Assembly (NCBI GenBank): GCA_963745035.1
Contig: CAVUVW010000006.1
Coordinates: 24,006-88,005 of the forward strand
Reading direction: 5' to 3'
DNA: 64,000 bases
Origin: an uncultured delta proteobacterium
Lineage (GTDB): Bacteria > Desulfobacterota > Binatia > UBA9968
Shown: in pieces, positions 4,256 to 20,005 of the stretch
How positions within the stretch are numbered: the first letter of the stretch is position 1
How the letters are laid out: every line of letters starts with the position of its first letter
Made by a program: the position numbers and the translations under genes
Notes under the pieces: model-generated
Databases searched by the model: none
Told to the model about the DNA's origin: nothing
The model's input: only the letters and a program-made list of their open reading frames with translations

Positions 4256-7200
4256 TCAATGAAAATCCCGGCTGCGCGTGCCGGCAGGCTTGAGATCCAG
4301 GCGCGGCTCCCAAAGCGTTTCGGCGACCAGGTGCACCACGCCGTCTTCGGCTTGCAGCTTGCCGCTGATGCCGAGAAAGCCCGTGGTTTTGGCCAGCACC
4401 GGGTAGCGCTGGAAAACGCTCTCCCACACGACGACGTTGACGAAACCGGTTTCGTCTTCGAGTGTCATGAATACGACTCCGCCCGCCGTGCCCGGCCGCT
4501 GCCGGCAGATCACCAACCCCGCATAACGAACTTTGGCGCCGTCTTGCATCGACGCCACCGTCCGCGCATCAGGCAAGTCCTGACGCACCAGGCCGGCGCG
4601 CAGCGGTGCCAGCGGATGGCGCCTCGTGCTGTGCGACGTCCGGCGATAGTCCCAACCGACTTCTTCGAAGTCGGTGAGCGCGGCGAATGCCGGCGGCGCC
4701 GCGCGCGCCGGCAGCGACAGGGGTTCTTTTTGCGCGCGCGCCAGGCGGCGCACATCCCAAAGCGCCGCGCGCCGGTCAACGCGCAGGCTCTCGAAGGCCC
4801 CCGCCTCCGCCAGCGCGCCGAGAGCCCCTTCATCCAAGCCCGTGCGGCGGGCGAAATCCTCGAGCGACGCGAACGGCGCCCATTCACGCGCACGCGCGAT
4901 CTTCTTCCAATCTTTTTCACCGAAGCCTTTGACGTAGCGCAATCCCATGCGCACGGCGAACCGCTCCGCGCTCTCCGCGCACGGCTCCAGCGTGCAATCC
5001 CAATCACTGGTCTGCATGTCGACGCTGCGCATGACTATGCGATGACGCTTGGCGTCTTCGACGATGGTCGCCGGCGAGTAAAAACCCATCGGCTGAGCGT
5101 TCAACAGCGCGCAGGTGAACTCCGCTGGATAGTGGCATTTGAGCCAAGCTGTCGCGTAAGCGATGAGCGCGAAGCTCGCCGCGTGGCTTTCCGGAAAGCC
5201 GTACTCGCCGAAGCCGCGGATTTGCTCGAAGACCCGCTCGGCGAATTCCACAGCGATGCCTTTGGTCCGCATGCGCGTGATCAGCCGTTCACGGTGGCGC
5301 TCCATCCTGCCGGTGCGGTGCCATGCCGCCATGTCGCGGCGAAGCTGGTCAGCCTCGCCGGGCGTGTAATCCGCCACTACCATCGCAAGGCGCATCACTT
5401 GCTCCTGGAACAGCGGCACGCCGAGGGTTCTTTCGAGCACGGGCTTCAACAAATCATGGGGATAATCCACTTTTTCTTTGCCCTGGCGACGGCGCAAATA
5501 CGGGTGCACCATGCCACCGGTGATCGGCCCGGGGCGGACGATGCTGATCTCGATCACCAGATCGTAGAAGTTTCGCGGCTTAAGCCGCGGCAGCATCGCC
5601 ATCTGGGCACGGCTCTCGATCTGAAACACGCCGATCGTGTCGCTTTTGCAGATCATATCGTAAGTGGCTTCATCGTCACCGGGAATCGTTGCCATGGAAA
5701 GATCGATGCCGCGCTGCTCGCGCAGGAGCTTGAAGCAAAGATCGAGCTGGGTAAGCCCGCCTAGGCCGAGCAAATCGACTTTGAACAGGCCGAGATCTTC
5801 GACGTCGTTTTTATCCCATTGGATGACCGTGCGCTCTTCCATGGTCGCGTTTTCGATGGGAACCAGCTCGGGAATCGGTTCATGGCCGAGCAAAAAGCCG
5901 CCCGGATGGATCGATAGATGACGCGGAAAATCGAGGATCTCATTGGTGAGCTGGAGTAAATGCTCATGCAGGCCGCGGGAAGCATTGAGACCGATTTGTT
6001 CGAGCATTTGCGGGCGGACGTTTTCGTAGGACGAAAGAAATTTGGCGGCACGATCGAGAGCAGTCTCCGACAAGCCTAAAGCTTTGCCGATATCGCGCAG
6101 CGCCGAACGCGCGCGGTAGCGCACCACATTGGCCACCAGCGCGGCGCGGTCGCGGCCGTATTTCTGATAAACGTGCTGGATGACTTCCTCGCGCCGGTCA
6201 TGCTCGATATCGAGATCGATATCCGGCGGCTCGGCGCGCTCTTTCGAGATAAAACGCTCGAACAAACCTCCGATGAGTTTTGGATTAACGGCCGTGATGC
6301 CCAAGCAGTAGCAAACAACGGAGTTCGCCGCGGAACCGCGTCCCTGGCAGAGAATCGCGTTGGCATGGCAAAACTCGACGATCTCTCGCATGGTGAGAAA
6401 ATATCCGGGGTAGTCGAGCGATTCGATGATCTCGAGCTCTTTTTCGATCTGCGCGGCGATGGAATCGGGAATCCCGTCAGGGTAGCGCCGCCGCGCGCCG
6501 TCGAAAGTCTGCTGGCGCAGCCATTCCATCGAGCTCATGCCGTTGGGCAACTGTTCCGACGGATAACGATAGCGGATCTCGCTCAATGAAAAATTGCAAC
6601 GCTCGGCGATTTCCAAAGTCCGCCCGACGGCGGCCGGGTCGTCGGCGAAAAGTTGGGCGAACGCATAGGGCGGCTTGAGCCCGTATTCGGCGTTTGGCTT
6701 CAGCTTTCGCCCGCAGGAGGCGACCGGAATACCGTAGCGTATCGCCGTCAAGACATCCTGCAGGCGCCGGCGCGCCGGGTGGTGATAAAGGATTTCATTG
6801 ACTGCCGCGATTGGGAAACCAAAGCGCTTAGCGCGCTCGCGCAGCCGCGCTTCGTCGATGATTTCATCTTCGCACCGGTGCCGGACGATCCTCCCGTAAA
6901 ACCGATCGCCAAACGCATCGCGAAGGTCGCCGACGATTTGATCCGGATGCATTGCATATCTGGCTGATCCGTTTTCGCCTTCCTGTCCGTCATTCCCGTG
7001 CAAACGGGAATCCGGGTTCGTTGTTCTTGATCCAAAAGCACCCGCCCCGACTTCCGTGTTCGCGGGAGTGACGAACCCTACTTCCCCACCCCACAGTGCA
7101 ATCAGCCCCGCCGCATGCGTGCAAACTTCCCCCCACGTGACGACGCTCTCGCCTTTCTCCGAGCGGAGCCGTCCTTTAGTCAATAGCCGGCAGAGATTAG

Positions 7201-7459
7201 CATAACCGCCGCGATCTTGGCTCAACAGCACAATCGTCGAACCATCGTCGATCGTGACCTGCGATCCAATGATAATTTTCATGCCGAGCTCACGTGCCTT
7301 AATATGCGCGCGCACGACGCCGTAAACTCCGTCGCGGTCCGTCAGCGCGATCGCCGGCAAGCCCAAGCGATGGGCTTCCTCGACTAACTCGTCGGGATGG
7401 CTGGCGCCTTCGAGAAAGGAGAAATTGCTCTTACACCAGAGCGGAACGTAAGAAAACAT
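4256..7459 (-). CDS. dnaE2: Error-prone DNA polymerase DnaE2 (ImuC)
   Basis: PHP N-terminus [50 protein letters not shown], and the C-terminal SRDFH typical of DnaE2. Confidence 0.97.
6988..7073. repeat. Palindromic REP/dRS3-like repeat inside dnaE2
   Basis: CGTCATTCCCGTGCAAACGGGAATCC...CGCGGGAGTGACG; same family as the intergenic copies at 30754 and 45477. Confidence 0.8.
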
Positions 7460-7527
7460 GAAAATAATAGAACCGACCACGAAAATAACAAGGAATTGGA
7501 TGCGTGACTGGCGAAGGGTAACCGAGA

Positions 7528-7647
7528 AGCTAACGTTAAGAGGGCATGATGCGGTTTATCTCGCTCGACAGTGTGGCGTGCGCGCGACTTAGACAAACAG
7601 CGCTGCAGGGGCAATGAGTTCCACTCCATTCCTTGGACGCGTTGGAC
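7528..7647 (-). other. Degenerate attC, last site of array 2
   Basis: AGCTAAC (7528) to GTTGGAC (7641-7647) with partial arm complementarity. Confidence 0.45.
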
Positions 7648-7894
7648 GATAGTTTACAGCCGTCAATGGCAAAGGTCTCTTTGCGATCAGCCCGAGGCAT
7701 CAGCATAGATCAATACATCACGAAACACTGCGGCGATTTTTCTGGTTACTTATGGGTACAAAGTCAGCGATCATGGTGAGTGTCGTACGACTTGTATCGC
7801 ACCATCGAGTAGAGATGATCTCCGTTTGAGGGATGTGCCTTGCGATTGCAACGTCGTTGCCGCAGCGAAATATAACCTAAAATGACTTTTCTAC

Positions 7895-7980
7895 ACCCTC
7901 AGCGTGCCGGTTAAGCGCCGCACGCTACCGCATTTGCCTTGGTACTCTATCCATCACGGTCCACCGCAACCGGATTAGGT
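7895..7980 (-). other. Degenerate attC of the DUF1772 cassette
   Basis: The gene's TAA lies in GGACCTAAT, complementary to ATTAGGTCC at the cassette start (8432-8440); CCGGTT/AACCGG arms. Confidence 0.5.
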
Positions 7981-8415
7981 CCAAACCAAAAGCCAGACAT
8001 ACAACCCTGTGGCACCCATGCTCAACAGCGTGCGCACCGCATGAAGACTACCCCATCGCTTCAGCAGCGCCCGCGTTTCCGCCGAGCCGAGTTCGAGATC
8101 CGTGGCGAGGAGCCGGTGATTCGTCGGCATGATTACGATAAAGGTAAAGGGCACGACCGCCCCGATCAGTACCGCCGCCACGAGCCACCCAGCGCTACCG
8201 CCCGTAAACCAGACAGCCATACCGGCGATAGAGCTTACTACTGCCAGAGGAGCTTGCATCCACGTGGCGCGCCGGTAACTCGGCGCCCACTGCAATGCGG
8301 CGACACGCGTTTCAAGGAGCATGCGCGCCGGATGCTCGGCAACGTTGATGTACAGGGCAGCACCCGCGAACAACGACGCACAAATGACTGCCAAGAACTC
8401 GAACGCTTCAGACAC
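7975..8415 (-). CDS. DUF1772 / anthrone oxygenase-like membrane protein (cassette)
   Basis: Hydrophobic protein with LFAGAALYINVAEHPAR, PFTFIVIMPTNHRL and W..LHAVRT motifs. Confidence 0.8.
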   Translation of the reverse strand: MSEAFEFLAVICASLFAGAALYINVAEHPARMLLETRVAALQWAPSYRRATWMQAPLAVVSSIAGMAVWFTGGSAGWLVAAVLIGAVVPFTFIVIMPTNHRLLATDLELGSAETRALLKRWGSLHAVRTLLSMGATGLYVWLLVWT

Positions 8416-8615
8416 CGCTGTGTCTCCGTCGGGACCTAATGTTTGAAAACGAGGCGACTGTAATGGATCACCGGGACTATGGAGCCTAAAAGGTCATTCT
8501 CGGGCCGAGCACACGAAAGAGCCGAAGATCGAAAAGGCGACCCCGGCTCGGCTCGCCGCCGTTGGCTAACTCCATGGCGCTAATCCTATGGTGACGAAGG
8601 TGATATGAAGATCTC

Positions 8616-9851
8616 TCAGCGGACCGGCTGCGTGCGATCCACGGCCGCGCCGCGCAAGATGACCATAGAGATGCGTCGCGTGTTGGTGATGTCGTCCAGC
8701 GGGTTTGCGTCGAGCACGATGAAGTCCGCGCTCTTGCCGGCTTGCAATGTGCCCGTGTCGGCGAGCTGCAGGAATTCGGCTGAATTACGCGTCGCCGCTA
8801 CGATCACCTGCATCGGCGTCATCCCAGCGCTCACCATGTCCAACATCTCTTCGTGCGGCCCCCACGGCCGGTTGCCGTCGGTGCCGAGCGTGATGCGCAC
8901 GCCCGCCGCGTTCAGTTTCGCCAGATTGCGCGCCTGAATCCCGAAGAGGGCCTGCGCCTTTGGCCGGTCCGTGTTGGCCGCTTCGAGCTTCTTCAACTCA
9001 TCGGCCGGAAGGCCCGCCCGCAGCCAGCTTAGATCCACCTTCACGCCGCGATCCGGCAGGTTCGGCGTGAGCACCAGATTCGGCCGCTGCTTGAACATGG
9101 CCACCAGTTCGTCGTCGATGTCCTTGTCGCGAATGCCGTGCGCGAACGCGTCGAGTCCGGCACGGATGAGGCCCTTCGCATCCTCGAGCTCGAAGATATG
9201 CGCCGACACCCGCAGTCCTCGCTTGTGCGCATCGGCGATAATGGCGCTATAGATTTCCGGGGTCATCTTCTGATACTTGCCGTCCCTTGCATCGACCCAG
9301 ATCTTGACGATGTCGACCTTGTTCGCCGCCAACTCCTCCACCGCCTTGCGCCCCTCCGCCGCGCTCTTGACCCAGTAGGGCACGGTGGTGCGCCCCGGCT
9401 CGGGCATCGTGATGCCGCGCCCTGCGCTACGAAACCGCGCGACGCCGGGAATCGTCTCGTTGCGCATATCGAGCAGTCCATAACCGTCGGTGCCCATGCT
9501 CAGCGCGGCACTCACGCCGTAGTAGGCGCGCATTTTTAAGTCCTGTATCAGCGCTTCGCGGGTCTCGCTGAGATGGACGTGAGTGTCGATGATCATCGGC
9601 ATCACGGTCTTGCCGGCGAGGTTCACGCGCGCGGCGCCGGCGGGCACGCGGACGTCGGCGGCCGCGCCGGCCTGGGCGATCTTGGCGCCGTCCACGATCA
9701 ATGTCGCCTTCTCAATCACCCGTCCGTCCCCCACGATCAATCGCGCGCCTTCGTACGCCGTGACGGACCGTTCGGAGGTCGGAACCGCGCATCCGCCAAG
9801 GAAACCAAGAGCAACGATTGCCGCGACTACAACTACATTCACTCGGTGCAT
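8616..9851 (-). CDS. Amidohydrolase family lipoprotein (cassette)
   Basis: IDTHVH, AH...H, LGTDGN and GKSADFIVLDANPLDDI motifs; LGGC lipobox. Confidence 0.85.
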   Translation of the reverse strand: MHRVNVVVVAAIVALGFLGGCAVPTSERSVTAYEGARLIVGDGRVIEKATLIVDGAKIAQAGAAADVRVPAGAARVNLAGKTVMPMIIDTHVHLSETREALIQDLKMRAYYGVSAALSMGTDGYGLLDMRNETIPGVARFRSAGRGITMPEPGRTTVPYWVKSAAEGRKAVEELAANKVDIVKIWVDARDGKYQKMTPEIYSAIIADAHKRGLRVSAHIFELEDAKGLIRAGLDAFAHGIRDKDIDDELVAMFKQRPNLVLTPNLPDRGVKVDLSWLRAGLPADELKKLEAANTDRPKAQALFGIQARNLAKLNAAGVRITLGTDGNRPWGPHEEMLDMVSAGMTPMQVIVAATRNSAEFLQLADTGTLQAGKSADFIVLDANPLDDITNTRRISMVILRGAAVDRTQPVR

Positions 9852-9874
9852 GGGAACCTCCTCCATAAATATGT

Positions 9875-9934
9875 TTCTAACGCCTGAACTAACCCGAGCC
9901 GCGGAGCGGTGTCGGCTTGAAAGAATTGTTAGAC
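9875..9934 (-). other. attC
   Basis: TTCTAAC...GTTAGAC, 60 bp, with imperfect AGCCG/CGGCT arms. Confidence 0.7.
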
Positions 9935-9964
9935 AACAACTGTTCACCTCCTGTATCGGACATT

Positions 9965-10050
9965 GCATAACGCTATGCCGCTGAGCCGCTGTTACATTCG
10001 AAATCACCCGTCATGGACTCTTGCCGTCGGCTCCAGCGGCGTTGTTAGAC
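9965..10050 (-). other. attC
   Basis: GCATAAC...GTTAGAC; arms GCCGCTGAGCCG and CGGCTCCAGCGGC with an extrahelical base. Confidence 0.85.
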
Positions 10051-10070
10051 GGTTTACCCAAACGCGTAAG

Positions 10071-10580
10071 CTATGAAGCCGCCATAACTTCCCCACAATT
10101 CTTGCAAGTCCGAAATTCCCTATTTTCGAAGAACCGCTGATAAGCCTTAGAAACAGGATCGTCTCGATAGTCTTTCACGATGAACGTTTCCTCATGGAGC
10201 AAAGCATCACACTTCTGGCAAAACCAATGGAAACGATCGATTTCGCCTTCATGCCGCTTGCGCTCCAGCACGAAAGTGAAGGTGTCGGGCGCACGACGGG
10301 GTGAGTGTGGTACGCCGGCTGGAATGCGAATGACCGATCCTTCGGGAATGGCAGCAATCTCTTCTCGACCTGACGCCGTCCGATAATGCAGGCGCATCTC
10401 TCCCCTAATCATGTATATGACTTCATCGCTTGGGTTCGTGTGAAACTCGGAGCGGTACTCCCGTCCTCGAGCGACAAAAGCGACGGACTCAGACTCCTGC
10501 CACTGGACGCCGACCGCCTTGCCGCTCTCGGTGAGCTGCCGATATTGATCCGCTAGGTTAACGATTGAGATCAGAGACAT
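10071..10580 (-). CDS. 3-hydroxyanthranilate 3,4-dioxygenase-like cupin (cassette)
   Basis: R.EFH.NPSDE and IPAGVPHSPRR motifs, with rubredoxin-like CQKC and CKNC. Confidence 0.85.
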   Translation of the reverse strand: MSLISIVNLADQYRQLTESGKAVGVQWQESESVAFVARGREYRSEFHTNPSDEVIYMIRGEMRLHYRTASGREEIAAIPEGSVIRIPAGVPHSPRRAPDTFTFVLERKRHEGEIDRFHWFCQKCDALLHEETFIVKDYRDDPVSKAYQRFFENREFRTCKNCGEVMAAS

Positions 10581-10630
10581 AAGATACCTCCATTCTAAGG
10601 TGAGACCGTAGGCGTCTACGACGAAATGCC

Positions 10631-10690: not shown

Positions 10691-10758
10691 TCGCATTGCA
10701 TTACCCCGGAAGAGTGAGCAATGTGCATACGACCTCCTCGTGTCTTCACATCGAACAG

Positions 10759-12639: not shown

Positions 12640-14249
12640 TTACTCAATCGCTCCCTGCCAAAACCACCTTCTTCTCACCCGGTCGTAATACAGCCAGAGG
12701 AGATCGCCGGCGCGGGTTTCGGCGTAATAGTATTCGCGCTGAATCTCGCGATTCCACCAGCCGCCGGAAAAAACATACGGGCCGGTGAGTTTGTCGATGC
12801 TGCCGTATTTGGGGCCGAGCATGAGCCAGCCGTCTTCGTGCGAGTGATAAGGCCCGCCGTGGAGGCGCCGCGGCTTGGCAAAGACCCGGCGCACTAACGT
12901 ATTCGGAGTGGACTCGTTCAAGCCGTTCAAATCGTTCAACCGCTTGCGGAGCCGGCCCTGAGCCCTTCGACTTCGCTCAAGATAAACTCCGTCGAAGGGT
13001 TCAACACGTTTTTGGGGAGTTTGACGCGGCTCACGGGCTCCCAAACAAAGCGCGCTTCGGGAAGATGGCCGTCGATGAGTTTGGCCCAGACGACGGAGTG
13101 TTCGCCGAACTCGGCGCGCAGGCGGGCGAGTGCGCGGTTGGCCGCGTCGAGATCGCGGCTCGGCCCTTCGACTTGGTCACTCTGTTCGGCGAACAGGCGC
13201 AGCTGCTCGCTGGTGGCGGCGCAGGTTTCCGCGCCAAGCTCGATTTCGCTCACGCCCGCGGCCACTTGCAGCGACTCCAAACGCAGACGGATCAAATCCA
13301 GGATCTGGCTGGCATCGAGAGTCGGAACCGCGGCGCGGAGCGACTCTCTGAGCCAGTCGCCATGGTCGATCAGCAAAGACAGCCGGATCGCCACCACGGC
13401 TTGATGGCGCGCCGCCAGAGTCGCAAGCAGCGGATGCAACAATTGCTTGATGAGAAACAGCAGCCGCGTGCTGTTGTTTTCGGCATCGTCGAGAATTTGT
13501 TTTTCCACGGCGGGCTCGTCGGGCGCCTGGGGTTCGAGCGGCGTCCAGAGATCGCCGGCGGCGAGGCGATGAAGCCGGTGCGCTTCCTTGCCGAAGCGCT
13601 CGCGCAATCCGCCCGGCGGAAGCGCGAGCAAGTCGCCGACGGTTTTGATGCCGAGCTGGAAAAGCGTGTCGCGAAATTTGGGGTCAATATGCAAACGGTT
13701 AAGCGGAATCTTCCTCGCGGCGGCGTGCTCATCGGCGGGATTGAGAAAAACCGTAACGTTCTTTTTCGCCTTGGCCACGGCGTAGCTGCCAAAGCGCGTG
13801 AAGCCGACCGCGAGGCTCGCGGCAAATCCCTGAGCTCTGAGATCTCTGTGAATGGCGTAGGCCCATTTTTCCGCCGAGGCATAGAGGCGCCGCAAGCCGG
13901 CGCCGTTGAGCCAAAAGACGCCGGGCTCGTCCGCCGCAGGCTCGACTTCGGGCGTAAAGCTCATGAAGCGCTGGGTCAGTTCGCCCACGGCTTTTTTTAT
14001 TTCCGCCGGCGGCACTGCGCCGGCGCGCAGCGCCGAAGCCAGAGAAAAGGCGGCGGCGTAGCGCAAGCCGGGCAACACGCCCTGCTGCCGGGCCTTTTCG
14101 TTGACCCAGAGAACCACTCCCTGCGGCTTGTCTTCAGCTACCACCGCCGCTGGATAAGCGCTCCACTCGGGATGGCGCCGCAGCAGGAGCTGAAGAGGAA
14201 AGGCCGGCAGATCAACACAGGCCAGCCGGCCCGGTGTAGAGCTTTTCAT
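12640..14249 (-). CDS. imuB: ImuB, inactive Y-family polymerase-like protein; frameshift near 12945 in a repeat-derived linker
   Basis: RLACVDLPAFPLQ, FTPEVEP, LARLRAEFG, and the C-terminal GPY..SGGWW...REYY...LWLYYD motif. Confidence 0.9.
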
Positions 14250-14808
14250 AATGCCATGTCGGGCCACGCCGTTTGTCCTTGAGCACGCGCAAAGCGCAGG
14301 CGAAGCGATTGTCTGCCGTCCGTTTCTTCTCGGCATGAACGCGCAGCGAAACCAACGAGCCCAAAGAAAATGCTGCGCTGCTTTTATCGGTGAGGCAAAC
14401 CAAAGCGGCGTGATGGCGCTGCGCCAAACCGGTCAAGCGGGTCTGCAGCGGCATGGGAATATCGGCGGCGCCGAGATCGAGCACGACCAGGCCGAAGCCG
14501 CCGGAGCGCAAAAGTTTTTCGCCGGCGCGCGGGATGCTCTGGCGTTCATTGAGACGCACGACCACGAGCGCCGCCAGATCAACGCCGCAGCGCTCCGCAT
14601 CGGGCGGATAGAAAGAAGTTTCCGAAGAAGTCACCCAGGCTACCGGCTCGCCACGCTTGTGGGCTTCGCGGACCAAGTCGAAAGCGATGGTCAGCGCCGC
14701 CGACCCGGTAGAGCTCGATATCTCCACCAGCCGCCCGGCGAGATTTCCGAGCACCCACGGCGTCGGTGAACCAGCGGGATGAAGTTTTTGCGCGGAAAAT
14801 AAGATCAT
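14212..14808 (-). CDS. imuA: ImuA / RecA-like protein
   Basis: GRLVEIS, FYPPD...GVDL and LLRSGGFGLVVLD motifs; overlaps the imuB start. Confidence 0.85.
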   Translation of the reverse strand: MILFSAQKLHPAGSPTPWVLGNLAGRLVEISSSTGSAALTIAFDLVREAHKRGEPVAWVTSSETSFYPPDAERCGVDLAALVVVRLNERQSIPRAGEKLLRSGGFGLVVLDLGAADIPMPLQTRLTGLAQRHHAALVCLTDKSSAAFSLGSLVSLRVHAEKKRTADNRFACALRVLKDKRRGPTWHYEKLYTGPAGLC

Positions 14809-14939
14809 GGACAGGATCTCCGTGAACTGGACATGCGCGGAGAGCGCGATCGACAGCTTCAGGAGGGATTCCTTCAGCTACTGCCCGGCAAGTATCGTCG
14901 TATTTGAAAGATGCAGAAACGAAGGTAAGAGGATCAATT

Positions 14940-15056
14940 ATCTAACGCCCGCGTGGACCGGCCCGCACGCGCTACCAAACGCCGCGCGCGCATAATCTCT
15001 CCCGCACGCTCAGCGCGCTAAATTGTTCACGGTCTGCTCCAACGCGCGTAGAGGCG
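14940..15056 (-). other. Degenerate attC, last site of array 1
   Basis: ATCTAACGCCCGCGTGGA...TCCAACGCGCGTAGAGGC; the R'' box is decayed. Confidence 0.6.
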
Positions 15057-15073
15057 CTCAATCGAGTGGCCAT

Positions 15074-15451
15074 TCAATCAAGGAACTTCCACGATGCCGC
15101 ACCGTCGAGGTGCCGGATCCGCACTCCGGCAAGAGCAGAAGGCTCGAAGTTGACCGCGTTCACTGCAATGGTCGTGTTGCGGCGTTTCTTCCGATACGCA
15201 TAGTGGGTGACGCAACCACATTTCTTGCATCGATAATAAACGCGAATCTTCCGGTTCCATGAATATTTCGATAGGCCGCCCTTGGGAGCTTCAATTTTAA
15301 CCGAACTCGCAGCGTAGTAAGCCCAGAGCGCGCCATAGCGGCGGCAGATCGAACAATTGCAGCTCGTTAAAGTGCGCGATAGCCGTCGAACGTAAATCCG
15401 AATCGCGCCACAGTGACACGTGGCCGCAAGCGCTGCGTTGCGGTGATCCAT
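15074..15451 (-). CDS. GFA/CENP-V family Zn protein (cassette)
   Basis: CHCGAI, CNCSICRRYG and CKKCG motifs. Confidence 0.9.
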   Translation of the reverse strand: MDHRNAALAATCHCGAIRIYVRRLSRTLTSCNCSICRRYGALWAYYAASSVKIEAPKGGLSKYSWNRKIRVYYRCKKCGCVTHYAYRKKRRNTTIAVNAVNFEPSALAGVRIRHLDGAASWKFLD

Positions 15452-15454
15452 AGC

Positions 15455-15517
15455 GCCTAACCGGATTGAGCTCAGCCGCCGCGCTTTTCAGCGGTCGGCT
15501 GCAGCGGCTTGTTCGGC
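15455..15517 (-). other. attC
   Basis: GCCTAAC...GTTCGGC; arms GCTCAGCCGCCGC and GCGGTCGGCTGCAGC with two extrahelical bases. Confidence 0.9.
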
Positions 15518-15589
15518 CTGCCTTACCCCGTGGCATAGGTTGGAGTTGACTCACCGGGACCTTTTCATCCTCCAACATGACGCCCTTGA

Positions 15590-16468
15590 TCATGCGCGGG
15601 TCAATACGAAGTCGTAGTCCATGGTGTGGAACGGGCGATCCATCTGGCGGCCGTCAGGCGCCTTACCGGGCTGATGCCGCGGGAAGTCTGCGATCAGCCC
15701 GTCCCGTACCGAAAAGGCAGCGTCCCGGTCGAGGTACTCACTGCCGCGCACGCAGATTTGCGTCACCAGGGTGTCGTGGCCATCGGCCTCGATCATGAAG
15801 TGAACGTGCGCCGGCCGCCAGCCCCCGTTCGAGGTATACTTGACCAGGTCGCCCATCCCCCCGTCATTCGGGACTGGATAGCCGATGGGGACGACCGTCC
15901 AGAACGAATAGCGACCGTCCGGCTCGCTCTTCAATTGCCCCCGCGTCCGCATTCCGTCCTTGGCCAGGTCACCCTGCACGTCGTACAGTCCCCGCCCGTC
16001 CGATTGCCAGACGTTGATGGTCGCGTTTGGAACAGGCCGACGATCGATCGCGAGAATACGCCCCGAGACGTAGAGAGGCTCGCCCGCGACGTCTTCGGCG
16101 ATGTCGGCGCCGTTCGCGAAAGAGGGTGCGTTCGGAAGGAAGAACGGTCCGAGCACGCCCGGCAGCGTCGCGCCTTCCGGCTTCGGTTGCGATATCTGGA
16201 TCACCAGGGTTTCGAGCCCGAGCATCTCGGCGAGCGCGAGGAATTCCTGCCTGCCGCCCTTGCAGTAACCGCCCAGCTGGACCAGATAGTTCATCGCGAA
16301 GAGGTACTCGTCGCCGGTCAGCCGCACGTCGCGCGCAAAGCCATGCAGATGCTTGATCAGGCTCAAGATGATCTCGCGCAGGCGGGGGCCCGTCGTAGCT
16401 TGGTAGCGGGTTAGCGCTTCCTTCGTGATCGCCTCTTCGGCAGCGGCATTTTTCCCTTCCGTAGTCAT
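15590..16468 (-). CDS. Intradiol ring-cleavage dioxygenase, hydroxyquinol/catechol 1,2-type (cassette)
   Basis: PRLREII..LIKHLHGFARDV, LGPFF, VWQSD..G.YD and WRPAHVHF motifs. Confidence 0.9.
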   Translation of the reverse strand: MTTEGKNAAAEEAITKEALTRYQATTGPRLREIILSLIKHLHGFARDVRLTGDEYLFAMNYLVQLGGYCKGGRQEFLALAEMLGLETLVIQISQPKPEGATLPGVLGPFFLPNAPSFANGADIAEDVAGEPLYVSGRILAIDRRPVPNATINVWQSDGRGLYDVQGDLAKDGMRTRGQLKSEPDGRYSFWTVVPIGYPVPNDGGMGDLVKYTSNGGWRPAHVHFMIEADGHDTLVTQICVRGSEYLDRDAAFSVRDGLIADFPRHQPGKAPDGRQMDRPFHTMDYDFVLTRA

Positions 16469-16608
16469 GAACGTGTCCTCCGATTGTTGGTGACGGTTTT
16501 CAGGGCCGCTTCCACCTCACTCAACTCCTCGCCGTAAAAGTGGTTCTCAACGGCCGCCTAGTTCGGCATCTGGTTGTCTCCATACTTGCTTTCCGTGGCA
16601 GGTTTTCG

Positions 16609-16678
16609 GGCGAACGCTAGCGGTCACCGGACGGAGCGAGCAACGCGAGTCCCGATCCGGTGCACTGCATTGTTAGCC
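16609..16678 (-). other. attC
   Basis: GGCGAAC...GTTAGCC; TCACCGGA/TCCGGTGCA arms; the gene's TAA lies in the R'' box. Confidence 0.85.
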
Positions 16679-17245
16679 AGAGACGCCAAGCACCCCCAGG
16701 ACCTCGTCCCAGTGGCTGCAGAACGCCACACCCACCGGGCAATCATCGATCTGTGTTCGCCCGTGTTGCAGCCAGACACGCCGCAATCCTTCCAGCCGTA
16801 CGTCGCGGAGGTGTCGAACATCATCGTCGATAAGGACATGAGCGCCGATCTGGTGACACACCTGCTCCTTGCTGGAGTCGTGCGACGTTATGACCTCCCT
16901 GATGGAAAGCGCAAGACCCATTCGCTCGAGCCACTCTCGAGCGTAGGCAATGCGATGCAGCCGTCTGTTAGTAACGACGAACACATCTCCAATGACTGTG
17001 AGGGCACGAAGCGCGTTTGCAGCGCCGGGGACTTCCGCTGCTGCCAGGGTGCTCTCACGTTCGTACACGTAGTCGTTCATTTCCTCATATGGACTTTTCC
17101 CAATGAGAGGCACGCAATCAGTGCGATTGCATTGCCACGGCTCTACGTCCCGGCCCACATGTGTCTTGATCCACTTCATCGCCTCGGCATTGGTATTCGC
17201 AATCGTGCCGTCGTAATCTACCGCGATGATCAGTCTTGTACTCAT
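16673..17245 (-). CDS. HAD-superfamily hydrolase, 5'(3')-nucleotidase-like (cassette)
   Basis: IAVDYDGTIA, VVTNR and LIDD motifs. Confidence 0.8.
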   Translation of the reverse strand: MSTRLIIAVDYDGTIANTNAEAMKWIKTHVGRDVEPWQCNRTDCVPLIGKSPYEEMNDYVYERESTLAAAEVPGAANALRALTVIGDVFVVTNRRLHRIAYAREWLERMGLALSIREVITSHDSSKEQVCHQIGAHVLIDDDVRHLRDVRLEGLRRVWLQHGRTQIDDCPVGVAFCSHWDEVLGVLGVSG

Positions 17246-17258
17246 CCAGGCCCTTTCT

Positions 17259-17348
17259 GGCTAACGTCGTGGTGAACGGCGGGCCGCAGCGACGGTCTTT
17301 GCGTTGGCACGGTGGTTCGCGGCCCGTCCGTTCCACCTAGAGTTAGAG
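17259..17348 (-). other. attC
   Basis: GGCTAAC...GTTAGAG; arms GGTGAACGGCGGGCCGC and GCGGCCCGTCCGTTCCACC with two extrahelical bases. Confidence 0.92.
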
Positions 17349-17358
17349 CGCAAAAGGC

Positions 17359-17847
17359 TCAATGCGCCTCCTTGGCGAGGCGGTCATCACGCTCGCGCAG
17401 CAGCCAGTAGACCACGCCGAGCACAAGGGTTGCTCCAGCCAGCGCCGCAATGGTGCTTGCGGCGGTGGCGCTGGAATCGAGAATGACGAACTTGCGACTC
17501 AACGCAATGAGCGCGATGAGCACCACGGTCTTGACCTGGATGATGCTCGAGCGCCGAAGAGCAACGCTAACAATCGAATGCTTGAATTCCATGGCGATGA
17601 GCAGCGTCATGATCATGCCAAAGAGCGCCTGAAAGACGTCATGTTCCAGTGGATCTATCGCGCCGCTAAGCAACAGCGGCACGATGCGGATGACCAGCTG
17701 CACGAGCGCTAGGGCGATGACCACTGAGATCACGAGACTCAGAACGATCGCAACAATCTGCTCGAAGCGCTCGTAAACGGACATGATCGGCCAATGCTCA
17801 CGTGTTTCCGCAAAGAACTTCCGCGGCGCGTGGCGTTTGTTGTCCAT
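17359..17847 (-). CDS. PsiE-family membrane protein (first cassette of array 1)
   Basis: About four TM segments; FGMIMTLLIAMEF and LIALSRKFVILD motifs. Confidence 0.8.
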   Translation of the reverse strand: MDNKRHAPRKFFAETREHWPIMSVYERFEQIVAIVLSLVISVVIALALVQLVIRIVPLLLSGAIDPLEHDVFQALFGMIMTLLIAMEFKHSIVSVALRRSSIIQVKTVVLIALIALSRKFVILDSSATAASTIAALAGATLVLGVVYWLLRERDDRLAKEAH

Positions 17848-17871
17848 TTGTCGCTCCGTTCTTGCCTTGCG

Positions 17872-17992
17872 CTCTAACTATTAAGTGAACGAATTAGACT
17901 AACCTTGTGTTGGCCGCTTATTCCCAAAGCATGTTTCACTGAAAAATATCAAAATTACCAGCTTTATCGTCCACTTTTCTGTTGCAAGTCAA
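17872..17992 (-). other. Putative attI-1, downstream of intI
   Basis: GTTAGAGC core complementary to the R'' GCTCTAAC of the first attC; no hairpin; AT-rich; TTGACT at 17992-17987. Confidence 0.75.
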
Positions 17993-18084
17993 GGTTCTTA
18001 TGATCAGCAATTGCGGCCAGTTTGACCGCCTATCACTCTATTGGCCCGCAGCCTATTCCGGAGACCACAGGGTAGTTCAAGTCT

Positions 18085-19142
18085 TTAGAGACGGTCTGCC
18101 GGGCTTCGAACGCCTCTACCGCCGCGATCAATACATGCGTATAAATCATGGTCGTGCTGACATCGCGGTGACCGAGCAACTCCTGCACCGTCCGGATATC
18201 GTACCCATCCTCCAATAAATGCGTCGCGAAAGAGTGTCGTAAAGAATGACATGTGGCTGGTTTTGGTATCCCGGCATTGCGAACAGCCTCGCGCACTGCT
18301 TTTTGTAGCACCGATTCATGGAGATGATGCCGGTACTGCAATCCGGTGTGGCGGTCAATGTAGTATCTTGTCGCAGGAAACACCCATTGCCATACCCATT
18401 CTCGGTTAGCGTTTGGATATTTCCTATCCAGCGCGTTCGGCAACACAACTCGCCCTAAATTATTCTCAACATCATACTGGTGTTGTCGTTTGCCATTGTT
18501 GAGATGCTTAGTGAGTGGTTCTTTCACAGCTGTAGGAAGCATCGTGTAACGGTCCTTGTCTCCCTTTCCAGCGCGTATAACGATTTGGTTTTGCGAAAAA
18601 TCAATGTCTTTTACCCTGAGCCGGCAACATTCCATGAGCCGAAGGCCGGCGCCGTAAAGCAATGTCGCCATGATTTTTTCGGTTCCTGTAAGCTGATTCA
18701 GTAGGCTTTGGATCTCCGCACGGGTCAATACGACCGGCAACCGTAGAGCTTTTTTCGCGCGTACTACGCCGTTCACATAACCGATCTCTTTTTCTAATAC
18801 CTGGTGATAAAGAAACAGCAATGCGTTCAGGGCTTGGTTCTGCGTGGAACCGCTCACCTTTGATTCGGCTGCCAAATTAGAAAGGAAACGCGCTATTTCC
18901 GGTTCCGCCATTTCTGCAGGGTGCCGTTTATTGTGGAAAAAGATGAACCGTCTGATCCAATGGACATAGCTGCCTTCAGTCTTGGGACTGTAGTGTCGGG
19001 TGCGGATTGCCCGGCGCACTTGATCGAGCAATTTCGGCTTCATCGCCGTGGCTATCGACCGAACGCCGGCTGCGGCGTTCAATCCACCGTCAATCACCGC
19101 GAGCGTACGGGTTGGCTGCCTGGGTGCGTCAATGTTCATCAT
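18085..19142 (-). CDS. intI: Integron integrase; 1-nt frameshift near the C-terminus
   Basis: [38 protein letters not shown], the IntI-specific [30 protein letters not shown] and TTMIYTHV. Restoring one A gives the ending [15 protein letters not shown]. Confidence 0.96.
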
Positions 19143-19359
19143 CCTAACCGCTCTCCTTGTCATCCGCGTCTCGCAGCACCCCCTCTAGGGTTGACGAGGA
19201 ATGACGGAACGAAGCTTGGCACAACGCTGGATAAGCTTCCGCCCGTACTGCAGCGCAGTGTTCAAACCGTTCAAGAGTTCAAGGTTCAACGCTGGAGAAA
19301 CAAAAACAGTCTAGAGAACTTTGAACTTTCAACCTTGAACTTTTTAGTCCCCCGCCCAC

Positions 19360-19969
19360 TTAGAATTTTCTCAGCAATCCCACCACCCGCCCCACGATGC
19401 GGAACTCCCCTTCGGAGACAGTGATCGGCGGGTACTTTTCGTTCTCCGCCTTGAGCGTGACGACGCCGTCTTTCTCGAAGAACCGCTTGAGCGTCGCCTC
19501 GCCCTCGATCACCGCGCACACGATCTCGCCGTTCTCCGCACTGCCCTGCTGCTTCACGATTACCCGGTCGCCGTCGAGGATACCGGCGCCGATCATGCTG
19601 TCGCCTTTGACCTGCAGCGCGAACCTTTTTCCGCTGCCGATGTCGTCGGGAATGGTGATGGTGCCTTCGAAATTTTCTTCGTTTAGGAGCGGCTTGCCGG
19701 CGGCGATCCTGCCCAGAACCGGCAGCCTGGCGGGTCGGGCTAATGGCCGCTTGGCCCAAAGCGTTGACGATCTCGATGGCGCGCTTGCCGACGCGGCGGA
19801 TATAGCCCTTTTTCTCCAAGGCCTTCAGATGATCGGAGACGCCGTTAGTCGAAGTGATCTTGAACTGCCTGCCGATCTCGTGCATCGACGGTGCGAAGCC
19901 CTTCTCGCGAATGGTTTTGAGCAGAAAATCGTAGATCGCTTTTTGCCGGGAGGTCAGCTCGGGAAGCAT
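19360..19969 (-). CDS. lexA: SOS repressor LexA (frameshift near 19730)
   Basis: [12 protein letters not shown]...[18 protein letters not shown], then LGRIAAG cleavage site, GDSM catalytic Ser and TLKR catalytic Lys. Confidence 0.93.
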
Positions 19970-19974
19970 GGTTC

Positions 19975-20005
19975 ACCATATACTGAAAATATTTTCAGTA
20001 GTCAA
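19975..20005 (-). promoter_or_regulatory. lexA promoter with putative SOS box
   Basis: Perfect palindrome TACTGAAAATATTTTCAGTA (19981-20000) immediately downstream of TTGACT (20005-20000). Confidence 0.8.

What the first reader, a model, noticed from the sequence alone, without database searches (positions are those of the whole stretch)
4256..20005. Integron interleaved with the lexA-imuA-imuB-dnaE2 SOS mutagenesis cassette
Seen: everything lies on one strand in the order SOS box, lexA, intI, attI-1 with 4 cassettes, imuA, imuB, attI-2 with about 6 cassettes, dnaE2. The last attC of array 1 is about 130 bp from imuA and the last attC of array 2 is about 70 bp from dnaE2. Established: lexA-imuA-imuB-dnaE2 is a self-regulated mutasome cassette, and many intI genes are LexA-controlled through their own SOS box. 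Inference: the two diversity generators, point mutagenesis and cassette shuffling, form one locus under one SOS promoter. I see no separate SOS box before intI. Gain or loss of cassettes would change the distance to imuA and dnaE2 and could tune the mutation rate. I know of no description of this arrangement.
Basis: partly seen in the sequence, partly recalled or inferred. Interest (0 to 1): 0.92.

Follow-up and report, generated by a model that had tools for sequence, protein, structure and literature searches.

The report
Integrons nested in SOS mutagenesis operon
A soil bacterium carries gene-capturing integrons inside the DNA-damage-induced operon that encodes its error-prone DNA polymerase, an arrangement kept across its relatives that probably puts gene shuffling under the same damage alarm as mutagenesis.

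Summary
On the minus strand lie a LexA-box promoter, lexA, an integron integrase (intI), attI-1 and four cassettes. Then come imuA, imuB, a four-helix-bundle (4HB) element, an orphan attI-2 with three or more cassettes, and dnaE2. A covariance model built here finds 6 attC sites in the 64-kb window, all in the two arrays and all on the operon strand. The claimed attC about 70 bp before dnaE2 is not supported.

It is not an assembly chimera. At least 12 related genomes show the same interleaving, and several keep a second intI after imuB. Independent metagenome contigs bridge key junctions and break exactly at predicted cassette boundaries.

The assembly's frameshifts in lexA, imuB and intI are absent from independent contigs, so they are probably consensus errors.

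In relatives the same LexA-box promoter sits directly before intI, in one case with only a lexA stump left between. My best reading is that intI gets SOS control by sitting in, or copying the head of, the lexA operon.

One promoter driving all 16 kb, and array length tuning mutation rate, are untested and unlikely. Relatives separate imuB and dnaE2 by 25-36 kb, and attI regions carry their own conserved promoter-like element. I found no published description.

The parts
19975..20006 (-). lexA promoter: -35 TTGACT, 20-nt palindromic LexA box (19981-20000), and a -10-like TATA overlapping the end of the box
   Evidence: Only perfect TACTG-N10-CAGTA in the window. Box and -35 are conserved upstream of lexA in 7 of 7 genomes aligned.
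19360..19969 (-). lexA. The assembly has one extra base at 19725 that splits the gene into two frames.
   Evidence: LexA_DNA_bind in frame 1 and Peptidase_S24 in the other frame. Relatives are one base shorter here. Contigs of runs X5 (DNA) and X15 (RNA library) lack that base.
19255..19345 (-). Two inverted sets of 9-bp TTGAACNNN repeats between lexA and intI. Relatives have a 4HB gene at this spot.
   Evidence: Sequence read. lexA-4HB-intI is seen in G014, G005:C267 and G010. The weak fold is no better than shuffles.
18033..19163 (-). intI, integron integrase (clade A). The last ~12 residues are out of frame in the assembly; the canonical end lies in the other frame and stops at 18085.
   Evidence: TIGR02249 445 bits over cut-off 265. 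It is the only over-cut-off match in the 7.4-Mb genome. Alternative frame reads [13 protein letters not shown]. An X10 contig has one extra base behind 18127.
17872..18032 (-). attI-1 region with crossover core GTTAGAG (17878..17872) and a conserved TTGACT element
   Evidence: The core CACTTAATAGTTAG recurs behind clade-A intI genes of 5 relatives. Region aligned. Contigs of X1 and X15 end at 17872-17876.
17257..17871 (-). Cassette 1: PsiE-family gene (17847..17359) plus attC1 (17351..17257)
   Evidence: PF06146 E 5.8e-30. R2 E 0.015 for a non-training site. Hairpin z -2.6. An X15 contig matches 17261-17872 and then diverges.
16607..17256 (-). Cassette 2: NT5C-type 5'-nucleotidase (17245..16673) plus attC2 (16680..16607)
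   Evidence: PF06941. R2 E 2.9e-10. X1 and X10 contigs end at 17266 and an X5 contig ends at 16616.
15453..16606 (-). Cassette 3: catechol-dioxygenase-like gene (16468..15590) plus attC3 (15519..15453)
   Evidence: Dioxygenase_C and Dioxygenase_N. R2 E 1.8e-8.
14940..15452 (-). Cassette 4: GFA-family gene (15451..15074) plus a decayed attC (about 15058..14940, R' GTTAGAT 14946..14940)
   Evidence: PF04828. Not detected by R2. It aligns with the terminal attC of relatives and shares the cassette with G044. An X10 contig, 14644-15095, bridges into imuA.
14809..14939 (-). Conserved imuA leader that begins at the terminal attC crossover
   Evidence: Alignment of 12 genomes. The leader is conserved in the 8 array-bearing ones from GTTAGAT/GTTAAAT onward.
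14212..14808 (-). imuA (RecA-like)
   Evidence: PF00154 E 1.2e-7. NF033429 at 38 bits, below its cut-off of 150. 72-79% identical in genus relatives, always next to imuB.
12640..14336 (-). imuB (Y-family, IMS domain). The assembly lacks one base at 12945/12946, so the last ~95 codons are out of frame. A TTGAACNNN repeat stretch (12939..12904) is part of the coding linker.
   Evidence: PF00817. Relatives have open frames of 534-630 aa. Alignment. An X5 contig has the extra base.
12108..12634 (-). Four-helix-bundle (23S rRNA IVS protein family) gene 12525..12082, flanked by inverted TTGAACNNN repeat arms
   Evidence: TIGR02436 E 1.3e-29. Inverted repeats I1-I3. Many loose ends with differing flanks at 12109 and 12633 in X1, X5 and X10.
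11806..12085 (-). higA-like HTH gene remnant, frameshifted in the assembly. It occupies the place where relatives have the second intI.
   Evidence: My reading; no Pfam hit. An X5 contig is one base shorter at 12044. Relatives have intI after imuB-4HB.
11548..11790 (-). Orphan attI-2 region: promoter-like TTGACA-18-GATATT (11670..11641) and core GTTAGAC (11554..11548)
   Evidence: About 200 nt homologous to the attI regions behind the intI genes of G021:C75 and G007:C165. It is the best promoter-like match of the region, 10 of 12.
9873..11547 (-). Array 2, supported part. SBP_bac_3 gene (11508..10759) plus attC5 (10692..10629). 3-HAO/cupin gene (to 10071) plus attC6 (10052..9963). A short ORF-less cassette plus attC7 (9936..9873).
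   Evidence: Pfam. R2 E 1.8e-7, 1.3e-3 and 2.1e-9. An X5 contig, 9393-10663, is identical across all three attC sites.
7481..9872 (-). Distal stretch before dnaE2: amidohydrolase (9851..8616), anthrone-oxygenase-family gene (8415..7975) and about 500 nt non-coding. No recognisable attC.
   Evidence: Pfam. No R2 match. No attC-like folds. An X5 contig, 6209-7679, bridges into dnaE2.
4256..7480 (-). dnaE2 (imuC), error-prone DNA polymerase. The likely start is the ATG at 7459.
   Evidence: NF004225 1357.6 bits over cut-off 939. The start aligns with relatives.

Best explanation
This is a sedentary chromosomal integron system nested inside the LexA-controlled lexA-imuA-imuB-dnaE2 (mutasome) locus of an uncultured soil bacterium.

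Structure, SHOWN. A complete integron of the 'inverted integrase' type, with intI pointing the same way as its cassettes, sits between lexA and imuA. A second array sits between imuB and dnaE2. It is headed by an orphan attI whose integrase has been lost here but is kept in relatives.

How it works, INFERRED. intI has no promoter or box of its own and is transcribed from the LexA-box promoter of lexA. DNA damage that cleaves LexA would therefore switch on the integrase together with the operon. The single clade-A IntI can then act in trans on both attI sites and on other attC clusters in the genome.

Why the linkage exists, INFERRED. I found only two strong boxes of this type in the genome. 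An integron that is to be SOS-induced by position therefore ends up in the mutasome operon, or carries off a copy of its promoter.

Each array probably also has its own promoter in the attI region. imuA and dnaE2 are therefore unlikely to depend only on read-through.

Cassette exchange is ongoing in natural populations.
For: 1. The parts are real: IntI, attC sites, attI, ImuA, ImuB, DnaE2, LexA and the box.

2. The attC model carries over to relatives. Over 27 loci from relatives (446 kb) R2 gave 87 matches at E<=0.1. Of these, 84 are on the operon strand and 3 are mirror hits of the same sites. Twelve loci had none, among them the array-free junctions of G043 and G018.

3. The architecture recurs.
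- lexA-(4HB)-intI: G000, G005, G010, G014, G016, and an intI remnant in G003.
- imuB-(4HB)-intI: G005, G006, G012, G014, G015, G017 (same genus), G142, G157, G264 (two other genera of the family).
- imuA-imuB-dnaE2-intI-attC array on one strand: G027 and G029 (another family), G189 (a third family) and an Acidobacteriota MAG, L080.

4. The promoter link. The same -35/box/-10 promoter lies directly before intI in G008:C69 and G012:C48. In L060 only the last ~15 codons of lexA remain between promoter and intI. In L096 the order is box-intI-lexA. In 1.85 Mb of fetched loci, AT-rich boxes occur only at the heads of lexA or intI, at dnaE2 in G013, and at one other G000 locus. G000 has two such boxes in 7.4 Mb.

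5. Independent contigs. X10 bridges array 1 into imuA. X5 bridges the upstream region into dnaE2. X5 spans three attC sites with 0 differences. Matches stop exactly at 17266, 16616 and 17872-17876, which are the predicted crossover points.

6. IntI tree. The family's IntIs form one clade with two subclades. The intI genes linked to dnaE2 in other lineages fall outside it, so the linkage arose more than once or is old.
Against: - No transcript data link lexA to intI. The one RNA library laid (X15) only gives separate contigs on lexA, two cassettes, imuA, imuB and dnaE2. Contigs cannot show strand or a single transcript, and DNA carry-over is possible.
- LexA binding to the box is not tested.
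- Promoter and terminator scans are no richer than shuffles (7 against 5.9, and 19 against 18.3), so they neither support nor exclude internal promoters.
- Not all family IntIs are linked. G023:C489 has no lexA or box in the 1.3 kb available upstream. G048 and G082 show no SOS genes within 5.6-6.3 kb upstream.
- Of 80 IntI loci from other taxa, only 4 had lexA, imuA, imuB or dnaE2 within the flanks fetched.
- In this assembly lexA, imuB and intI are frameshifted. If that is real for this strain, the system would be deregulated or dead here.
- In G006, G014, G157 and G264 the dnaE2-proximal 8-20 kb has no detectable attC. 'Array' does not describe the whole gap.
Confidence: 0.62

Rival explanations
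1. Neutral hot spot. The intergenic gaps of a non-essential, normally repressed operon simply tolerate insertions of integrons and of 4HB elements alike. The linkage has no regulatory meaning and persists by descent within one family.
For: - 4HB elements occupy the same two junctions with or without integrons (G018, G008, G043).
- Most examples come from one family, where kin are not independent.
- Only 4 of 80 unrelated IntI loci are near SOS genes.
- attI regions have their own promoter-like element.
Against: - The box-promoter is found fused directly to intI away from the mutasome genes (G008:C69, G012:C48, L060).
- Phylogenetically separate IntIs (G189, L080, L112, L096) also sit in or beside lexA or dnaE2 units.
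- intI is always co-oriented with the operon in the family.
Confidence: 0.22
2. One SOS promoter transcribes the whole 16 kb, and gain or loss of cassettes tunes imuAB and dnaE2 expression and so the mutation rate.
For: - Everything is on one strand, with one box in the locus.
- There is no terminator excess.
- An RNA library holds contigs on lexA, cassettes, imuA, imuB and dnaE2.
Against: - imuB and dnaE2 are 25-36 kb apart in 6 of the 8 genomes where both are on one contig.
- There are conserved promoter-like elements at both attI regions and a conserved imuA leader.
- G013 carries an SOS box immediately before dnaE2, so dnaE2 can have its own control.
- Nothing here measures expression or mutation rate.
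Confidence: 0.1
3. The mutasome genes are themselves cargo. imuA-imuB and dnaE2 would be large cassettes captured by one long integron.
For: They lie between attC-bearing stretches on the cassette strand. 5' fragments of dnaE2 are duplicated upstream in G015, G003 and G005:C347.
Against: - There is no attC after imuB or after dnaE2, and none within 2.5 kb before dnaE2 in 10 relatives' loci.
- imuB is followed by 4HB plus attI, not by an attC.
- The contiguous lexA-imuA-imuB-dnaE2 of G008 and the lexA-imuA-imuB of G043 and G012 show the operon as the older frame.
Confidence: 0.04
4. Assembly artefact. A chimeric contig in a metagenome-assembled genome joined an integron to the mutasome genes.
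For: The genome is a MAG with 28 contigs, 92.6% complete and 5.8% contaminated. It has several single-base errors in this region.
Against: The same junctions are seen in more than 12 other assemblies. Independent contigs from other studies bridge array 1 to imuA and the upstream region to dnaE2.
Confidence: 0.02

Closest known systems
SOS-regulated integrons (class 1, Vibrio cholerae chromosomal integron): LexA box in the intI promoter. Cambray et al. 2011, PMC3108266 (passages read); Guerin et al. 2009 as cited in PMC9578287 (passages).
   Same: Integrase expression is tied to LexA and DNA damage. The box is of the CTG-N10-CAG palindrome type.
   Different: Here intI has no box of its own. 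It lies behind lexA (or behind imuB) in the LexA-controlled operon, or has taken over that operon's promoter. Cambray et al. never mention imuA or dnaE2 (0 occurrences each) and state that loss of LexA regulation is the norm in soil and freshwater chromosomal integrons.
[quoted passage not shown] Treponema). Cury et al. 2016, PMC4889954 (passages); PMC3607928 (search listing only).
   Same: intI, attI and cassettes all read in one direction.
   Different: No link to lexA or to translesion polymerase genes is reported. 'lexA' and 'polymerase' each occur 0 times in the main text of Cury et al. Its supplements could not be seen.
lexA-imuA-imuB-dnaE2 (imuABC) mutagenesis cassette; lexA2 operon of Pseudomonas putida. 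Review PMC3901139 (passages).
   Same: Same genes, same order, same strand, and a LexA box at the head with lexA as first gene.
   Different: The known forms are either one compact transcription unit or split loci that each have their own SOS box. Here the unit is split in place by integron arrays of 4-36 kb, and I found no box at imuA or dnaE2.
CALIN (cluster of attC sites lacking an integron integrase). Cury et al. 2016, PMC4889954 (passages).
   Same: Array 2 has 3 attC sites and no intI within 4 kb. It could be serviced in trans by the IntI 7 kb away.
   Different: It still has a recognisable attI with a promoter-like element. Relatives show the integrase that was lost.
Integron-like elements that insert site-specifically into rulB, a Y-family polymerase gene, on plasmid pWW0. 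PMC4542609 (search listing and start of abstract only).
   Same: An integrase-bearing gene-capture element is physically tied to an SOS mutagenesis operon.
   Different: Those elements interrupt the polymerase gene and are not classical integrons with attC arrays. Here the mutasome genes stay whole and the integrons sit between them.

Membership tests
Integron (complete) | Integron-type tyrosine recombinase (IntI with its specific extra domain) | tested here: met
   TIGR02249 445 bits against a cut-off of 265, aligned over model positions 1-301 of 315. The last residues are out of frame in the assembly; the canonical end is seen in the other frame.
Integron (complete) | At least one attC site with paired R''/R' and L''/L' boxes next to intI | tested here: met
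   My own covariance model, not IntegronFinder's. Three sites in array 1 at E 2.9e-10, 1.8e-8 and 0.015, all on the strand of intI. The model also finds 84 same-strand sites in relatives.
Integron (complete) | attI site adjacent to intI where cassettes are inserted | tested here: inconclusive
   A conserved core CACTTAATAG|TTAG lies behind clade-A intI genes in 5 relatives. Contigs from other samples break at this point. Recombination activity is not testable here.
Integron (complete) | Pc promoter reading into the array | tested here: inconclusive
   A conserved TTGAC(A/T) plus -10-like element lies about 95 nt before both attI cores. 11670..11641 is the best consensus match in the region, but the total count equals that of shuffles.
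Inverted-integrase integrons | intI on the same strand as the attC sites and cassette ORFs | tested here: met
   intI, 6 of 6 attC sites and 8 of 8 cassette ORFs are on the minus strand.
CALIN (array 2) | Two or more attC sites with no intI nearby (4 kb) | tested here: met
   Three attC sites at 10692..9873. The nearest intI ends at 18033.
imuA-imuB-dnaE2 mutasome cassette | DnaE2/ImuC-type C-family polymerase | tested here: met
   NF004225 1357.6 bits over cut-off 939. A separate DnaE1-like gene lies elsewhere, at C5.
imuA-imuB-dnaE2 mutasome cassette | ImuB: Y-family fold lacking the catalytic acidic residues | tested here: inconclusive
   IMS domain E 7.5e-10. Alignment to solved Pol IV chains keeps the first Asp and places a D-E pair one position off the catalytic D-E. 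I cannot decide from this.
imuA-imuB-dnaE2 mutasome cassette | ImuA: RecA-like protein encoded next to imuB | tested here: inconclusive
   NF033429 reaches only 38 bits against a cut-off of 150. There is a RecA Pfam hit at E 1.2e-7. The position next to imuB is conserved in all relatives examined.
imuA-imuB-dnaE2 mutasome cassette | LexA control (SOS box at the head of the unit) | tested here: met
   The box lies between the -35 and -10 of lexA and is conserved in 7 of 7 genomes. Binding and induction are not testable here.
LexA | N-terminal winged-helix DNA-binding domain plus C-terminal S24 self-cleaving domain in one protein | tested here: inconclusive
   Both domains are present but in two frames in this assembly. 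They are in one frame in 6 relatives and in contigs of X5 and X15.

The most novel reading that the evidence does not exclude
Integrons in this bacterial family, and independently in at least three other lineages, have become downstream genes of the LexA-controlled mutasome operon. The integrase gets its SOS control not from a box of its own but from its place behind lexA, imuB or dnaE2, or from a captured copy of the lexA promoter. Selection would then keep point mutagenesis and cassette shuffling as one co-induced 'evolvability' unit. The cassettes nearest attI would themselves be damage-inducible genes.
Probability: 0.35. Interest if true: 0.9.

Novelty: new variant of a known kind. Interest (0 to 1): 0.77.

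Why it matters
Integrons and the ImuABC mutasome are the two best-known SOS-induced generators of bacterial genetic novelty. They have been treated as separate systems that merely share a regulator. Here they are physically interleaved, and the interleaving is kept, with turnover of cassettes and of integrase copies, across several genera. It reappears in other forms in other lineages.

This offers a second, box-less route to SOS control of an integrase. It also bears on an observation in Cambray et al. 2011 (PMC3108266, passages read), that soil and freshwater chromosomal integrons mostly lack a recognisable LexA site at intI. Some of them may be controlled from an upstream operon instead.

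The hypothesis is directly testable. It needs a lexA-promoter to intI read-through reporter, LexA binding, and induction by mitomycin C. The system also provides natural variants for comparison: lexA-intI, promoter-intI, imuB-intI and dnaE2-intI.

It also shows how arrays of 5-36 kb can pull apart an operon whose products must assemble into one complex. That raises the question of how imuAB and dnaE2 stay co-expressed.

Tried and rejected
- A crude regex-plus-folding scan for attC-like hairpins did not discriminate in this GC-rich DNA. It gave 36 and 22+16 candidates spread over the window. I dropped it in favour of covariance models.
- Rfam holds nothing for this region apart from one chance hit (E 0.62). 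It reported no attC match.
- Direct and inverted repeat search found the TTGAACNNN repeats but not the attC sites.
- MAFFT alone misaligns attC sites of different length.
- The promoter and terminator consensus scan is uninformative, with counts equal to shuffles.
- Upstream regions of dnaE2 from 15 genomes share no conserved promoter or box. No attC was found within 2.5 kb upstream of dnaE2 in L140-L150.
- Joints in read laying with short sides (21-27 letters) were not used as evidence. These include one that skips 17269-17873 (cassette 1) and many that skip the 4HB gene. The tool warns that such joints often come from repeats or other organisms.
- Parts of the stretch without contig cover in single runs were not interpreted.
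- Taxonomy could not be settled. The only name comes from L060, a MAG labelled Candidatus Binatia, with 82% IntI identity and 70-77% nucleotide identity of flanking genes to G000 contig C13. That label is the depositor's.
- Class-level cross-matching of IntI and DnaE2 places is incomplete. Only the best 150 rows of each were listed, with 9 and 338 more not shown.
- ImuB catalytic residues stayed undecided.
- Complex prediction, structure prediction, protein database searches and the metagenome-contig scan were not used. None of them would have changed the verdict.
- Supplementary files of papers are closed. The supplements of Cambray 2011 and Cury 2016 list genomic contexts and might mention neighbours that I could not see.

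Full report
WHAT IS IN THE WINDOW

All features lie on the minus strand between 20006 and 4256.

The head is a sigma-70-like promoter. Its -35 (TTGACT) and -10 enclose a perfect 20-nt palindrome, TACTGAAAATATTTTCAGTA (19981-20000). This is the only perfect TACTG-N10-CAGTA in the 64 kb. The one-mismatch hit inside intI is within chance, with 0.29 expected.

The features that follow, in order:
- lexA, 19969..19360.
- A pair of inverted TTGAACNNN repeat blocks.
- intI, 19163..18033. It scores 445 bits on TIGR02249 against a cut-off of 265. It is the only over-cut-off integron integrase in the 7.4-Mb genome.
- An attI region with core GTTAGAG (17878..17872).
- Four cassettes: PsiE family, NT5C nucleotidase, catechol-dioxygenase-like, GFA family.
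- imuA, 14808..14212.
- imuB, 14336..12640.
- A four-helix-bundle (4HB, 23S rRNA IVS protein family) gene flanked by inverted TTGAACNNN repeats.
- A higA-like remnant.
- A second attI region with core GTTAGAC (11554..11548).
- Cassettes encoding an SBP_bac_3 protein and a 3-HAO/cupin protein, then an ORF-less cassette.
- An amidohydrolase gene, an anthrone-oxygenase-family gene and about 500 nt without ORF.
- dnaE2, 7480..4256 (NF004225, 1357.6 bits against a cut-off of 939).

ARE THE attC SITES REAL?

Rfam reported no attC match, and my regex scans were useless. I therefore built a covariance model from four window sites (R1). I used it to collect 17 further sites from relatives and rebuilt the model as R2.

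On the whole window, both strands, filters off, R2 gave 54 matches at E<=5. Six had E<=0.015, and all six lie on the minus strand within the two arrays. Two of them had not been used for training: 9963-10052 and 17257-17351. The next best matches are a mirror hit and scattered sites at E>=0.049.

On 27 loci from relatives (446 kb) R2 gave 87 matches at E<=0.1. Of these, 84 are on the strand of the operon and 3 are mirror images of the same sites. Twelve loci had none. Those include the junctions of genomes that have lexA-imuA or lexA-4HB-imuA with nothing between (G043, G018).

So the attC calls are specific.

- The fourth site of array 1 (about 15058..14940) is not detected, and its fold is no better than shuffles. 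It does lie exactly where relatives have their terminal attC. The same GFA cassette, with an even more decayed site, is shared with G044. I read it as an old, eroding attC.
- The 'attC 70 bp before dnaE2' (7594..7528) neither scores nor folds.

No attC is detected in the 2.4 kb before dnaE2. The same holds within 2.5 kb upstream of dnaE2 in 10 loci of relatives.

IS THE ASSEMBLY SOUND?

The genome is a MAG: 28 contigs, 92.6% complete, 5.8% contaminated. In the assembly four genes are out of frame: lexA, imuB, the last dozen codons of intI, and the higA-like gene.

Alignment with relatives placed a one-base surplus in lexA and a one-base deficit in imuB. Contigs from other public runs show exactly these differences:
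- one base fewer at 19725 (X5 DNA, X15 RNA library);
- one more behind 12945 (X5);
- one more behind 18127 (X10), which gives the canonical IntI end seen in the other frame;
- one fewer at 12044 (X5).

These are most simply consensus errors of the assembly. At the least, intact versions exist in nature.

The same call shows contigs that bridge array 1 into imuA (X10, 14644-15095), the upstream stretch into dnaE2 (X5, 6209-7679), and three attC sites without a single difference (X5, 9393-10663).

Matches of contigs from other samples end at 17266 (X1, X10), 16616 (X5) and 17872-17876 (X15, X1). These are the predicted G|TT crossover points of attC1, attC2 and attI-1. In two of them the contig runs on into unrelated sequence. 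The same cassettes therefore sit in different company in other populations, which is the signature of cassette exchange. Joints with short sides were not used.

RELATIVES

In the genus (31 genomes including this one), ImuB is found in 23, IntI in 15 (both at E<=1e-30) and a polymerase match at E<=1e-100 in 29.

Locus by locus:
- lexA-(4HB)-intI occurs in G000, G005:C267, G010, G014 and G016. G003 has an intI remnant followed by 12 attC sites.
- imuB-(4HB)-intI occurs in G005:C138, G006, G012:C72, G014, G015 and G017.
- G014 has both integrases. Its order is lexA-4HB-intI, then 12 attC sites, then imuA-imuB-4HB-intI, then 6 or more attC sites, then dnaE2.
- Arrays without an integrase stand before imuA in G019 (12 sites), G044 (5) and G015 (2). 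They stand after imuB-4HB in G018 (8) and G044 (5).

imuB and dnaE2 share a contig in 8 genomes. They are about 0.4 kb apart in G008 (the compact operon), about 5 kb in this window, and 25-36 kb in G003, G006, G014, G015, G019 and G044. They are always co-oriented.

In those long gaps, detected attC sites cluster at the intI end. The dnaE2-proximal 8-20 kb has none in G006, G014, G157 and G264. G019 and G003 have few or none throughout. The gaps are therefore not arrays from end to end.

Beyond the genus:
- G264 and G157 (another genus of the family) have (lexA-imuA-)imuB-4HB-intI-attC sites-dnaE2.
- G142 (a third genus) has lexA-4HB-imuA-imuB-intI, with 66 nt between imuB and intI.
- In another family of the order, G027 and G029 have imuA-imuB-dnaE2-intI, with a fragmentary intI. 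In G029 six attC sites follow on the same strand.
- G189, from a third family, has imuB-dnaE2-intI plus five attC sites.

Among 80 IntI loci of other taxa, 4 have such neighbours:
- L080, an Acidobacteriota MAG: imuA-imuB-4HB-dnaE2, 3 kb, then intI and attC sites, all on one strand.
- L112, a Rhodocyclaceae MAG: intI directly before dnaE2, with a divergent array.
- L096, a Methylomirabilis MAG: box-intI-lexA, with a divergent array.
- L111: lexA convergent to intI.

Not linked, as far as the contigs reach: G023:C489, G048, G082, and 13 further class-level loci fetched.

THE PROMOTER LINK

The lexA promoter and box are conserved in 7 of 7 genomes aligned.

The same promoter, with -35, box and -10, lies immediately before intI in G008:C69 and G012:C48, about 35 nt ahead of the ribosome-binding site. 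In L060 it is followed by the last ~15 codons of lexA, TTGAAC repeats and then intI. G005:C347 has box, lexA fragments, intI, one attC and dnaE2. G013 has the box right before dnaE2.

In all 1.85 Mb of loci held, AT-rich boxes of this type occur only at such heads and at one further G000 locus. G000 as a whole has two.

This series (lexA-intI, then a lexA stump-intI, then promoter-intI) is the strongest argument that transcription from this promoter matters for the integrase.

THE INTEGRASES

On a maximum-likelihood tree of 34 IntIs, the family's sequences form one clade (95/86) with two subclades.
- Clade A (100/100) holds this window's IntI, G005:C267, G023, L060, G012:C48 and G008:C69.
- Clade B (99/97) holds all imuB-proximal IntIs and the lexA-proximal one of G014.
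- G189, L080, L112 and L096 lie outside.

The linkage is therefore either old or arose several times. Within the family, integrase copies have been swapped between the two junctions.

The window's attI-2 region is homologous over about 200 nt to the attI regions behind the intI genes of G021:C75 and G007:C165. It shares the crossover core with attI-1. It is thus a true attI that has lost its integrase.

Both attI types keep a TTGAC(A/T) element and a -10-like hexamer at the same place. In attI-2 this is the best promoter-like match in the 16 kb, although the scan as a whole is no better than shuffles.

The imuA leader is conserved in the eight array-bearing genomes aligned. It starts exactly at the terminal GTTAGAT/GTTAAAT, as expected if it is the right half of the attI into which the first cassette went.

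HOW IT MOST LIKELY WORKS

Shown:
- a complete inverted-type integron plus an orphan-attI array, nested at two junctions of the lexA-imuA-imuB-dnaE2 locus;
- conservation with cassette turnover;
- one LexA-box promoter at the head.

Inferred:
- LexA represses that promoter.
- Damage induces lexA and, by read-through, intI.
- IntI acts on attI-1, attI-2 and other attC clusters. R2 finds 10 more sites elsewhere in G000.
- The arrays, and perhaps imuA, have promoters of their own.
- The link to the mutasome may be a by-product of there being so few LexA promoters to sit behind.

Not supported: a single transcript for everything, and tuning of mutation rate by array length.

LITERATURE

I ran these full-text searches:
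- integron with imuA or dnaE2;
- integron integrase / imuB / error-prone / chromosomal integron / lexA;
- SOS control of integrons;
- integron / mutasome / imuABC;
- integron AND dnaE2, which gave 18 papers, all reviews or unrelated genome papers judging by title and start of abstract;
- 'downstream of lexA' and related phrases with integron;
- the mutagenesis cassette.

None turned up this arrangement.

Passages read:
- Cambray 2011: no imuA or dnaE2.
- The SOS review PMC9578287: integrons are mentioned only as having SOS boxes.
- Cury 2016: the inverted group and CALIN, with no lexA or polymerase.
- The TLS review PMC3901139: the operon and its split forms, each with its own box.

Supplements were closed, and subscription journals are not covered.

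VERDICT

This is a real, conserved and apparently undescribed architecture. It is a new variant built of known parts. The regulatory reading is well motivated by comparative data but unproven.

Noticed in passing
window 12108-12634; also 19255-19345 and 12904-12939: A four-helix-bundle gene (TIGR02436 / 23S rRNA IVS protein family) is flanked by inverted arrays of 9-bp TTGAACNNN repeats. In relatives such genes sit after lexA and after imuB, with or without integrons. Contigs of three runs show many loose ends with differing flanks at 12109 and 12633, as for a multi-copy mobile unit. The same repeats form an in-frame, length-variable Leu-Asn linker inside imuB. Arrays of three or more phased repeats occur 133 times in the genome.
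   Followed up: partly
G000:C14:938490 (L178 2491-2510): This is the only other copy of the lexA-type box in the genome, with an identical 18-nt core. It lies 27 nt before a 142-aa ORF with no Pfam family. Tad pilus genes are nearby on the other strand. It may be a second member of a very small SOS regulon.
   Followed up: partly
window 19725, 18127, 12945, 12044 (also 7497, 11137/11140, 12094, 12169, 20012): Single-base differences between this assembly and independent contigs. Four of them remove frameshifts in lexA, intI, imuB and the higA-like gene. This suggests long-read consensus errors, so other genes of this genome may be falsely broken.
   Followed up: yes
L056 4817-4999 (G015), L141 473-664 (G003), L040 19572-19637 (G005:C347): 5' fragments of dnaE2 (about 22-64 codons) are duplicated 1-3.4 kb upstream of the full gene in three relatives. 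In G005:C347 the fragment lies just before a box-lexA stump-intI module, as if that module had been inserted into the start of dnaE2.
   Followed up: no
L150 622-641 (G013:C94): A LexA box with the same promoter context lies directly before dnaE2. No ImuB was found in that genome (93% complete) with this query.
   Followed up: no
L096 (Methylomirabilis MAG), L112 (Rhodocyclaceae MAG): These are classical divergent integrons whose intI is followed on the same strand by lexA (L096, with a CTGT-N8-ACAG box at the intI start) or by dnaE2 (L112, 170 nt downstream). They are further, phylogenetically distant cases of intI sharing a unit with SOS genes.
   Followed up: partly
G189:C112:41183-45456: dnaE2 and intI are 183 nt apart. 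The search reported an open frame of 1480 aa across the intI match, so the two may be read without a stop between them, or be fused.
   Followed up: no
G000 contigs C10:16663-17251, C21:134038-135806, C23:85885-88681 and single sites on C3, C13, C14, C26: Further attC-like sites (R2, E<=0.01) lie outside the window, in small clusters without an integrase. Only 150 of 8883 first-look candidates were scored, so the list is rough.
   Followed up: no
(runs X1-X14): Half or more of the sampled words of window 11500-20100 are held by 12 DNA runs of several studies, labelled rhizosphere, winery and soil metagenomes. Near-identical strains therefore seem widespread in soils. One of these runs may be the source sample.
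   Followed up: partly
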